Shown here: positions 19,858 through 20,418 of the stretch, one piece after another
Layout: each line of letters opens with the position of its first letter
How positions within the stretch are numbered: position 1 is the first letter of the stretch
UHGV virus genome: UHGV-0017337
Source of the DNA: a virus
Direction: 5' to 3' (one strand)
Length of the DNA stretch: 43,119 nt
Translations under genes and position numbers: made by a program
The notes under the pieces: generated by a model
The model's input: the letters and a program-made list of their open reading frames with translations, nothing else
What the model was told of the DNA's origin: nothing
The model's database searches: none

Positions 19858-20418
19858 AAATGGCTCTGGGTGATAATGAGGGTTTTACATAACTGGTCAT
19901 CCACACCTGACGTCCCAACATACCCCTATGCGTGACACGTGAATAACCAGTTATGTAAAACGACACGCAGTTCAGGATGTTTCACAACATGCTTTACCCA
20001 CGATTTGCGGCTTTCCCGCCAGCAAGATAAGGGTCACCTCCTTATCAGCGAGTGTTTGGGTTGTGGCGGTCGGTGCTGAACCCCGACTTAATGACGATAG
20101 GCGTGTACCGACGCCTCGTTTTACTTCCTCCGCTTTCACGGCTTCACCCTAGACCAGCTTTACGAAATCCTCGTAAACCTAACCGCGGCAGATATGACCG
20201 GCACGGTGTGCCATATCACGGACCGGCGGGTGTCTCGTTCACCTGATTAACGCATCAGCCTGCGTATTCACCACAACGATAAGAGCACTGAGATGTATGA
20301 TAATCGTCGCAGCACAGCTTTACATTATTCAATGCTCTTATCTGTTATGTGCCGGTTACGTTTATCCGGCGTCTTTCGACCGATTAAGTGATAGTGTCTG
20401 CTATGCAGTTCTGTCACT
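19858..20418 (-). ncRNA. Candidate structured noncoding RNA / untranslated transcribed unit (~560 nt)
   Basis: No ORF >20 codons on the - strand, higher GC than flanks, multiple GC hairpins (GCGG-GAAA-GCCGC, GGCAC-ACC-GTGCC), 16-bp perfect inverted repeat; bracketed by promoter and terminator. Confidence 0.3.

What the first reader, a model, noticed from the sequence alone, without database searches (positions are those of the whole stretch)
19882..19961. 16-bp perfect inverted repeat with a 48-nt loop beside the terminator
GTTTTACATAACTGGT (~19882-19897) is exactly reverse-complemented at ~19946-19961, giving a long stem around a 48-nt loop about 25 nt upstream of the terminator hairpin. A stem this long is unexpected by chance and could be an RNA processing or stability element, a protein binding site, or a recombination site.
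Basis: seen in the sequence. Interest (0 to 1): 0.4.

Follow-up and report, generated by a model that had tools for sequence, protein, structure and literature searches.

The report
Lineage-specific long RNA hairpin before terminator
The inverted repeat is real and not a chance match: it is a roughly 94-base insertion found only in Sasha-type phages, it folds into a 24-base-pair RNA hairpin just before a transcription terminator inside a non-coding unit between the head and neck genes, and its function has not been shown.

Summary
GTTTTACATAACTGGT (19882-19897) is exactly reverse-complemented at 19946-19961, and none of 200 shuffles of the window gave a perfect repeat that long.

All neighbouring genes are on the - strand. 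On that strand the stem extends to 24 uninterrupted pairs, because the DNA mismatches become G.U pairs. Folding energy is -39.6 kcal/mol on the - strand against -27.7 on the + strand.

The repeat is the core of a 94-nt insertion (19871-19964). It occurs once per genome in all 17 Sasha-type records found. It is absent from the same site in the sister phage 9NA, in SP069 and in Klebsiella relatives.

It sits between a conserved structured module and a strong intrinsic terminator. Both belong to a 575-bp non-coding gap between the head and neck genes that runs from a predicted promoter to that terminator. The gap also holds a separate family of long hairpins with clear compensatory changes.

No other copy exists in any collection searched and there is no target-site duplication, so it is not a MITE.

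Best reading: an RNA structural module, plausibly an RNase III substrate that controls processing or stability of the unit's 3' tail. This is inferred. The carriers are too similar to one another for a covariation test. Interest is modest; the surrounding RNA locus is more interesting than the repeat.

The parts
19938..19961 (-). 5' arm of the RNA stem (GUUUUACAUAACUGGUUAUUCACG). Its outer 16 nt (19946-19961) are the perfect repeat arm.
19882..19905 (-). 3' arm of the RNA stem (UGUGGAUGACCAGUUAUGUAAAAC). Its outer 16 nt (19882-19897) are the perfect repeat arm.
19906..19937 (-). 32-nt apical region. It contains a 4-bp inner helix and a small hairpin GCAUA-GGGG-UAUGU (19918-19931). Four of the five sites that vary among relatives lie here.
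19871..19964 (-). The whole 94-nt Sasha-lineage insertion, lying between the conserved CTGAACTGCGT and CCCAGAGCCAT. At this position 9NA has 14 nt and the Klebsiella relatives have 10 nt.
19832..19857 (-). Intrinsic terminator (GCCGUCU-GUUUA-AGACGGC followed by U7), conserved in 9NA, SP069 and most Klebsiella relatives.
19965..20055 (-). Conserved structured module directly upstream of the insertion. It holds TAAGGAGGTGA (the complement of the 16S rRNA 3' end), two hairpins (one with a CG/UA compensatory pair) and a 17-codon TTG open reading frame (20025-19972) whose variable sites are mostly not at third codon positions.
20425..20453 (-). Sigma-70-like promoter TTGACA-17-TATTGT at the end of the gp37-like gene. 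The -10 hexamer is conserved in all three clades. This is the presumed start of the non-coding unit.
20272..20349 (-). A second long hairpin of about 20 bp ('hairpin-2') belonging to a covarying family. It is context for the finding, not part of the repeat.

Best explanation
The repeat is the stem of an RNA hairpin of about 80 nt. The stem has 24 contiguous pairs, three of them G.U, with a folding energy near -39 kcal/mol. It was gained as a 94-nt insertion in the common ancestor of the Sasha-type phages.

It lies in the 3' tail of a non-coding transcription unit between the head and neck genes. The order on the - strand is: predicted promoter at 20453-20425, variable hairpin and tRNA-like cargo, a conserved structured module, this hairpin, then an intrinsic terminator at 19857-19839.

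Most likely mechanism (inferred): once transcribed, the two-turn double-stranded stem is a substrate for host RNase III. Cutting both strands would separate the terminator-proximal tail of about 60 nt (half-stem, CCCUCAUUAUCACCCAGAGCCAUUU and the terminator) from the upstream RNA. This would set the stability of each part. If the stem is not cut, it would simply act as a barrier to 3' exonucleases.

Shown here: the structure, its strand bias, its position and its lineage-specific gain. Not shown: transcription of the unit, cleavage, or any effect on phage fitness.
For: - The repeat is non-random.
- The - strand RNA folds at -39.6 kcal/mol against -27.7 for the + strand. All three non-Watson-Crick positions of the 24-bp stem are G.U on the - strand and A.C on the + strand.
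- Every flanking gene is on the - strand: major head protein, gp37, gp38, head closure protein Hc1 and Neck1.
- The hairpin persists in the minimum-energy and centroid folds of the whole 596-nt gap, which is itself unusually structured (z = -4.9).
- The insertion starts one base after the closing pair of a conserved helix and ends in the linker before the terminator. It is therefore a separate module that disrupts neither neighbour.
- All 17 carriers keep the 48 stem nucleotides unchanged. The five variable sites are in the apical region or the 3' flank (Fisher p = 0.025), and all four sequence variants keep the fold.
- The same gap holds another long-hairpin family in which 12 of 15 pairs show compensatory double changes. 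In 13 of the 14 long hairpins compared (13 of that family plus this repeat), the transcribed strand is the more stable. Long RNA stems are thus a maintained feature of this locus.
- In one relative (L029) the same tail position carries the 3' domain and terminator of the host small RNA RprA (63.9 bits, E = 1.9e-8). This suggests the tail is used as a small-RNA 3' end.
- RNase III accommodates about 22 bp of double-stranded RNA and cuts both strands of intramolecular stems (PMC6212723).
Against: - There are no RNA data. The promoter is only a consensus match.
- The stem offers no covariation test, because the carriers are about 99% identical. Only about 5% of flanking sites vary, so an unchanged 48-nt stem is only weakly surprising.
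- 9NA, SP069 and nine Klebsiella phages do without the element at the same site. It is therefore dispensable for the unit's core function and could be neutral.
- The 14 hairpins compared for strand bias were picked from - strand folds, which biases that comparison.
- No Rfam family matches the region.
Confidence: 0.45

Rival explanations
1. The repeat is a recent, functionless insertion tolerated in a variable spacer. It could be a palindrome created by a replication template switch or an illegitimate recombination event. Its perfect 16-bp arms would then reflect its youth rather than selection.
For: - The element is absent from the closest non-Sasha relatives at an otherwise conserved site.
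- The spot right after CTGAACTGCGT is a junction where every clade differs.
- The carriers are about 99% identical, so there has been little time for decay.
- No source sequence and no homologue were found anywhere.
Against: - All non-Watson-Crick positions of the extended stem are G.U on the transcribed strand.
- The variable sites avoid the stem (p = 0.025).
- The inner structure is retained in the variants. L033 has a double change, GACG to GAUA, that keeps all four inner pairs.
- The locus otherwise maintains long hairpins by compensatory change.
Confidence: 0.3
2. The repeat is a miniature inverted-repeat transposable element, similar to Correia, ERIC or RUP elements, that landed in the phage genome.
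For: It is a roughly 85-94-nt indel bounded by 16-23-nt terminal inverted repeats. Such elements are known to be co-transcribed into hairpins (this point rests on my own knowledge of Correia and ERIC elements).
Against: - There is one copy per genome, always at the same locus.
- No copy exists in 5,426 E. coli genomes, 72,556 plasmids, or one genome for each of 185,579 species. The 14 pattern hits in that last collection are unrelated palindromes in other phyla.
- The flanks (GCGTGTC and CCCTCAT) show no target-site duplication.
Confidence: 0.07
3. The repeat acts at the DNA level, as two inverted binding sites for a dimeric or looping protein, as a recombination site, or as a cruciform or single-stranded-DNA hairpin signal.
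For: The 16-bp arms are perfect, and their start-to-start spacing of 64 bp is about six helical turns. As single-stranded DNA the region also folds better than shuffles.
Against: - No other copy of the arm occurs in the 43-kb window, even allowing 3 mismatches.
- A 48-nt spacer (32-34 nt after the stem is extended) makes cruciform extrusion from duplex DNA unlikely (established knowledge).
- The window's genuine operator-like palindromes (24582-24665) look quite different.
- The strand asymmetry in stability is not expected for a site in duplex DNA.
- No recombinase gene or repeat-flanked cassette was seen around it.
Confidence: 0.08
4. The repeat is coding sequence, part of an N-terminal extension of the gp38-like protein, as some GenBank records annotate it (AVIO78A_052; 9NA gp42).
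For: The frame is open from a GTG at 19966 through to the gp38 ATG, and two deposited annotations use such extensions.
Against: - The extension would read through a strong intrinsic terminator.
- It ignores the conserved AGGTGA ribosome-binding site and the ATG at 19792.
- In Klebsiella relatives the first start codon after the upstream stop is the conserved ATG itself, which gives the 136-aa protein with no extension.
- The insertion is absent from 9NA with no effect on the 136-aa core, which is 95% identical.
Confidence: 0.03

Closest known systems
RNase III processing hairpins in phage transcripts (T7 intercistronic R sites; lambda sib)
   Same: It is an intramolecular double-stranded RNA stem of about two helical turns, located between cistrons or in a 3' region of a phage late transcript next to a terminator. 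It could set the stability of the flanking RNAs.
   Different: No cleavage has been shown. T7 sites have a characteristic internal loop and are cut once, whereas this is a 24-bp uninterrupted helix. Lambda sib overlaps its terminator and forms only on read-through. This hairpin lies upstream of its terminator and is confined to one lineage.
Co-transcribed MITE hairpins (Neisseria Correia/NEMIS, enterobacterial ERIC)
   Same: It is an insertion of about 90 nt with terminal inverted repeats that folds into a long hairpin once transcribed.
   Different: It is single-copy and always at one locus, with no target-site duplication and no relatives in any bacterial, plasmid or phage collection searched.
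3' stem-loop stabilisers and Hfq-type small-RNA 3' ends (for example the processed form of RprA)
   Same: It lies in the terminator-proximal tail of a short non-coding unit. One relative carries the RprA 3' domain at exactly this position (Rfam RprA, 63.9 bits). RprA itself is processed to a shorter 3' form (PMC6202311).
   Different: The window's own tail matches no Rfam family. The hairpin is much longer than typical small-RNA stems. Hfq binding was not tested.
The covarying 'hairpin-2' family in the same gap and in lambdoid late leaders
   Same: It has the same architecture (a stem of about 20-24 bp around a variable apical region of about 30-40 nt), the same strand and the same locus. The base of its stem also shares a short ACATAAC...GTTATGT-like motif with that family.
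   Different: It lacks the family's conserved flanks (GCYGGATAAACGTAACCRGCA on the 5' side, GTGAAK on the 3' side). A local alignment against the gap sequences scores no better than shuffled controls.

Membership tests
RNase III substrate hairpin | Intramolecular double-stranded RNA stem of about 20-22 bp or more on the transcribed strand | tested here: met
   24 contiguous pairs including 3 G.U; stem duplex energy -33.6 kcal/mol. The size requirement is taken from PMC6212723.
RNase III substrate hairpin | The region is transcribed | tested here: inconclusive
   Gene orientation, a conserved promoter-like site and a downstream intrinsic terminator all fit transcription of the - strand. No RNA data are available.
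RNase III substrate hairpin | RNase III-dependent staggered cleavage within the stem (2-nt 3' overhangs) | not testable with these tools
   This needs 5'/3' end mapping in wild-type and rnc hosts, or in vitro cleavage.
RNase III substrate hairpin | Stem maintained by compensatory change in relatives | tested here: inconclusive
   The stem is invariant in all 17 carriers and all five variable sites lie outside it. The carriers are about 99% identical.
MITE (Correia / ERIC / RUP type) | Terminal inverted repeats bounding a short non-coding insertion | tested here: met
   16 bp perfect, 23 bp imperfect arms at the ends of a 94-nt indel.
MITE (Correia / ERIC / RUP type) | Target-site duplication at the insertion borders | tested here: not met
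   The flanks read ...CTGAACTGCGT|GTC and CCCTCATTATCA|CCCAGAG, with no direct repeat.
MITE (Correia / ERIC / RUP type) | Multiple dispersed copies in a genome or in related genomes | tested here: not met
   One copy per phage at one locus. None in E. coli genomes, plasmids or GTDB species genomes, and none elsewhere in IMG/VR.
Intrinsic (Rho-independent) terminator | G+C-rich stem immediately followed by a U tract | tested here: not met
   The hairpin is followed by CCCUCAUUAUCACCC. The true terminator is the separate hairpin at 19857-19839 with U7.
Hfq-type small RNA / Rfam RprA | Match to the family covariance model at gathering score | tested here: not met
   The window has no RprA match at E of 10 or below. 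Relative L029 scores 63.9 bits against a gathering score of 70, through its 3' 50 nt only.
Operator / protein-binding inverted repeat | Closely spaced half-sites, usually recurring at other regulated promoters | tested here: not met
   The half-sites are 48 bp apart, and there is no further copy in the window with up to 3 mismatches.
HK022 put-type antiterminator RNA | Two adjacent stem-loops downstream of an early promoter that modify RNA polymerase (definition recalled from my own knowledge) | tested here: not met
   This is a single long hairpin with a small apical branch. Relatives read the same terminator without it. Function was not tested.

The most novel reading that the evidence does not exclude
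The whole 575-bp head-neck gap is a phage 'RNA cargo' locus: a non-coding unit running from a promoter to a terminator. Its parts are:
- exchangeable long-stem hairpins, shared at 99.6% identity with the late leader of lambdoid prophages;
- a tRNA or tRNA-like element;
- a conserved module carrying an 11-14-nt perfect complement of the 16S rRNA 3' end;
- a swappable small-RNA-like 3' tail.

In Sasha-type phages, the repeat studied here would be a processing stalk. RNase III would cut it to release a terminator-proximal regulatory RNA of about 60 nt. One Klebsiella-type relative instead carries the seed and terminator domain of the host small RNA RprA at that position.
Probability: 0.2. Interest if true: 0.6.

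Novelty: new member of a known kind. Interest (0 to 1): 0.35.

Why it matters
Taken alone, the hairpin is a modest finding: one more candidate RNA processing or stability element in a phage late region. It matters more as a marker of its locus.

The gap it sits in behaves as a modular, horizontally exchanged non-coding RNA unit. It is shared between virulent 9NA-like phages of Salmonella, E. coli and Klebsiella and temperate lambdoid prophages. It carries tRNA genes or remnants and hairpins that covary, and in one case a captured host small-RNA domain.

If the unit is expressed, it would be a tractable example of phages trading regulatory RNA modules. Members of the lineage have been isolated in culture (for example KarinMuster_Bas82 and AVIO78A), so direct tests in E. 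coli should be possible.

The work also corrects several database annotations that extend the gp38-like gene across a terminator and through this repeat.

Tried and rejected
- Rfam: no family matched the window at gathering score, and only chance-level terminator matches appeared at E of 10 or below around the repeat.
- ARAGORN: no tRNA or tmRNA gene in the window.
- MITE or mobile element: rejected. No second copy was found in the window, the phage database, E. coli genomes, plasmids, IMG/VR or GTDB genomes, and there is no target-site duplication.
- Origin by duplication of neighbouring gap sequence: the best local alignment score (21) equals the shuffled mean (21.6), so this was rejected. 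A short-word BLAST against all fetched loci also found nothing.
- Anti-BstA 'aba'-like DNA element. I considered this because 9NA is BstA-sensitive. The aba element is defined by terminal CCCGCC direct repeats, which are absent here.
- Covariation test on the stem: not possible. A flank-anchored pattern search that placed no constraint on the arms recovered only near-identical carriers in IMG/VR and in metagenomes.
- Coding reading (an extension of gp38): rejected.
- Literature: searches for Sashavirus/Nonanavirus and for lambdoid 'boundary sequences' found no description of this element.

Full report
**1. The observation**

The sequence GTTTTACATAACTGGT at 19882-19897 is exactly reverse-complemented at 19946-19961, with 48 nt between the arms. 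The repeat finder extends the arms to 23 nt at 91% complementarity. In 200 dinucleotide-preserving shuffles of the 43-kb window, no perfect inverted repeat with a loop of 100 nt or less reached 16 bp; the longest was 15 bp, once. The repeat ends 24 nt before the stem of a strong intrinsic terminator on the - strand (19857-19839, followed by U7).

**2. Genomic setting**

The window is a Sashavirus/9NA-like siphophage. All genes around the site are on the - strand:
- major head protein, 20849-21868;
- a 117-aa protein of unknown function (gp37-like, stop at about 20433);
- a gp38-like 136-aa protein starting at the ATG at 19792;
- head closure protein Hc1 and Neck1.

The repeat lies in the 575-bp non-coding gap between gp37 and gp38. 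A sigma-70-like promoter, TTGACA-17-TATTGT (20453-20425, - strand), overlaps the end of gp37. It is conserved in all relatives examined. The terminator closes the gap. The gap therefore looks like a self-contained non-coding unit running from a promoter to a terminator. As RNA the whole gap is unusually structured (-215 kcal/mol, z = -4.9), and the repeat hairpin is present in both the minimum-energy and the centroid structure.

**3. Strand bias**

Folded as RNA, the - strand forms 24 uninterrupted pairs, 19938-19961 with 19882-19905. A 4-bp inner helix and a small apical hairpin follow. The energy is -39.6 kcal/mol (z = -5.3). The + strand reaches only -27.7 kcal/mol. The three positions that extend the stem beyond the perfect 16 bp are G.U on the - strand and A.C on the + strand. 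The same asymmetry, though smaller, is seen with DNA energy parameters. This favours a role for the transcribed strand as RNA. With only three informative positions, the argument is suggestive rather than strong.

**4. Comparative evidence**

The 126 nt around the repeat are 100% identical in all ten Sasha-type GenBank records. I then searched for the conserved flanks CTGAACTGCGT and CCCAGAGCCAT with 75-105 nt of any sequence between them, so the arms were not constrained. This recovered four IMG/VR contigs and three metagenome contigs.

Across all carriers there are four sequence variants of the 94-nt insert. The five variable sites all lie outside the 48 stem nucleotides (Fisher p = 0.025). 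Every variant keeps the fold, at -37.8 to -39.4 kcal/mol. In L033 a double change, GACG to GAUA, keeps all four inner pairs.

The carriers are very close to one another, however. Only about 5% of flanking sites vary. An unchanged stem is therefore only weakly informative, and no covariation test is possible.

The element is absent at the same site in three groups:
- 9NA and SP069, whose gp38 is 95% identical;
- Klebsiella 9NA-like phages, whose gp38 is about 76% identical;
- further uncultivated relatives from IMG/VR that group with the Klebsiella phages.

At this position 9NA has 14 nt and the Klebsiella clade has 10 nt. By parsimony, the 94 nt (19871-19964) were inserted in the Sasha lineage. 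The insertion begins one base after the closing pair of a conserved helix and ends in the linker before the terminator. It adds a separate stem-loop without disturbing either neighbour.

**5. Is it a mobile element or a DNA site?**

The arm has no further copy in the window, even allowing three mismatches. The element has no match in:
- 5,426 complete E. coli genomes;
- 72,556 plasmids;
- other phages;
- other IMG/VR contigs, searched with either the arm or the loop.

A relaxed arm pattern scanned over one genome for each of 185,579 species gave only 14 unrelated palindromes in distant phyla. The borders show no target-site duplication. No part of the insert resembles other sequence in the gap regions of this phage or its relatives beyond shuffled expectation. 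It is therefore not a MITE by the defining criteria, and its source is unknown.

A protein-binding or recombination role has no positive support. The window's real operator-like palindromes (24582-24665) look quite different.

The open frame that some GenBank records use to extend gp38 through the repeat crosses a strong terminator, and it is not open in the Klebsiella relatives. The repeat is not coding.

**6. The surrounding locus**

The gap is a mosaic of RNA-like modules.

(a) A second long hairpin, 'hairpin-2' (20272-20349), belongs to a family with conserved flanks, hypervariable apical regions and stems that differ in sequence yet stay complementary. In an alignment of 13 family members, 12 of 15 pairs show compensatory double changes. 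In 13 of the 14 long hairpins compared (13 of that family plus the repeat), the transcribed strand is the more stable. One caveat applies: these hairpins were picked from - strand folds.

(b) A 237-bp block (20054-20290) is 99.6% identical to the Q-to-holin intergenic region of lambdoid or P22-like prophages in 119 of 5,426 E. coli genomes, and to CUS-3, IME10 and Huey. In E. coli 042 the hairpin-2 module follows a promoter-like TTGACA and a terminator-like hairpin with a T run that lie just downstream of Q. From their position these are probably the late promoter and its terminator, but I did not test that.

(c) The 3' end of that block looks like a tRNA T-arm plus acceptor stem plus CCA. Klebsiella relatives carry a real tRNA-Ser(GCU) at the same spot.

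(d) Directly downstream lies a conserved module of about 90 nt (19965-20055). It contains TAAGGAGGTGA, the complement of the 16S rRNA 3' end; the match is 13-14 nt long in most relatives. It also has two hairpins, one with a CG/UA compensatory pair plus a CA intermediate. Its 17-codon TTG open reading frame varies mostly at first and second codon positions, which points to constraint at the RNA level.

(e) In relative L029 the tail between this module and the terminator is replaced by the 3' domain and terminator of the host small RNA RprA. The Rfam score is 63.9 bits against a gathering score of 70, with E = 1.9e-8. RprA is itself processed to a shorter 3' form (PMC6202311).

The repeat thus occupies the one position in the unit where a relative has placed a known small-RNA functional domain.

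**7. Interpretation**

The best-supported reading is that the repeat is an RNA stem-loop module added to the 3' tail of this non-coding unit. A 24-bp helix matches the roughly 22-bp double-stranded RNA that RNase III accommodates and cuts on both strands (PMC6212723). Cleavage would detach the terminator-proximal tail of about 60 nt from the upstream RNA. Without cleavage, the stem would simply block 3' exonucleases.

I give the RNA-level reading a confidence of 0.45. The RNase III step is explicitly inferred.

The main rival (0.3) is a recent neutral insertion. The element is dispensable in sister clades and too young for its conservation to carry weight. The MITE, DNA-site and coding readings are each below 0.1.

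**8. Comparison with known systems**

The element works most like the RNase III hairpins of phage transcripts (T7 R sites, lambda sib) or like co-transcribed MITE hairpins (Correia, ERIC). It cannot be filed as a member of either group. Cleavage is untested. The MITE criteria of multiple copies and a target-site duplication were tested and failed. It matches no Rfam family.

**9. Verdict**

The feature is real, non-random and specific to one lineage. It is a new member of a known kind, namely structured RNA hairpins in phage intergenic regions, and its function is undemonstrated. Interest is 0.35. The more notable result is the locus around it, which merits its own follow-up.

Noticed in passing
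window 20272-20349 (- strand); also L028-L031, L052, L003, L036: 'Hairpin-2' is a family of hairpins with stems of about 20 bp, conserved flanks, hypervariable apical regions of about 23-180 nt, and stems that change sequence yet stay complementary (12 of 15 pairs show compensatory changes). There are up to three copies per gap in Klebsiella 9NA-like phages. A copy also follows a terminator-like hairpin just downstream of Q in a lambdoid prophage of E. coli 042. No Rfam family matches.
   Followed up: partly
window 20054-20290: A 237-bp non-coding block is 99.6% identical to the Q-to-holin intergenic region of lambdoid or P22-like prophages in 119 of 5,426 E. coli genomes, and to CUS-3, IME10 and Huey. 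This points to very recent exchange of non-coding sequence between a virulent siphophage and temperate prophages. Its 3' end (GTCGGGGTTCAGCACCGACCGCCA) resembles a tRNA T-arm plus acceptor stem plus CCA, although ARAGORN calls no tRNA.
   Followed up: partly
window 19965-20055 (- strand): A conserved module of about 90 nt is present in Sashavirus, Nonanavirus and Klebsiella relatives (24 phage records). It carries TAAGGAGGTGA(YC), an 11-14-nt complement of the 16S rRNA 3' end, followed by two hairpins. Its 17-codon TTG open reading frame (20025-19972) varies mostly at first and second codon positions, which suggests RNA-level constraint.
   Followed up: partly
L029 2368-2461 (IMGVR_UViG_3300048904_000047): In this Klebsiella-type relative, the tail and terminator of the same unit are replaced by the 3' 50 nt of the host small RNA RprA (Rfam RF00034, 63.9 bits against a gathering score of 70, E = 1.9e-8). 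Shorter RprA-like matches also occur in three E. coli phages (vB_EcoM-606R2, -689R2, -611R5) and in the Erwinia phages Ea9-2 and Tellus.
   Followed up: partly
L029 2221-2308, L030 2218-2305, L052 819-903, L053 808-895: A tRNA-Ser(GCU) gene sits immediately upstream of the conserved module in Klebsiella 9NA-like phages. That is the position where the window has only a tRNA-like remnant.
   Followed up: partly
window 24582-24665, 42280-42470, and 24480-24570 / 42200-42270: Two copies of a 25-bp palindromic operator-like site (AGCTAATACA-N5-TGTATTAGCT) lie in the divergent intergenic region at about 24.6 kb. Related iteron-like repeats (TTAGTGCA..GTTGTG) lie at about 42.3-42.5 kb. Both regions share a direct repeat of about 65 bp (CATAGATTTCGTCATGTTTA...TTATTATCTTTT).
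   Followed up: no
window 19382-19966 (- strand); L002 1183-1701; L005 1183-1728: Several GenBank records (AVIO78A_052, 9NA gp42 and others) annotate the gp38 homologue with an N-terminal extension that runs through the intrinsic terminator and, in Sasha-type phages, through the repeat. The conserved ribosome-binding site, the ATG at 19792, and the Klebsiella homologues that start at that ATG all indicate that these annotations are over-extended.
   Followed up: yes
window 19756-19776 / 19809-19829: A 21-nt inverted repeat at 76% complementarity pairs the 5' untranslated region of gp38 with its early coding region, bracketing the ribosome-binding site and start codon. It could be a translational control structure.
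   Followed up: no
L028 ~1830-1975: In one Klebsiella-type relative, the gap also carries a short open reading frame with its own ribosome-binding site. It encodes a hydrophobic peptide of about 46 aa (MIWFILSLLFLYRLVSGIVPLLIILPEMAIQLMRSSPRLTQNSRFC). This is consistent with the gap being a hotspot for inserted cargo.
   Followed up: no
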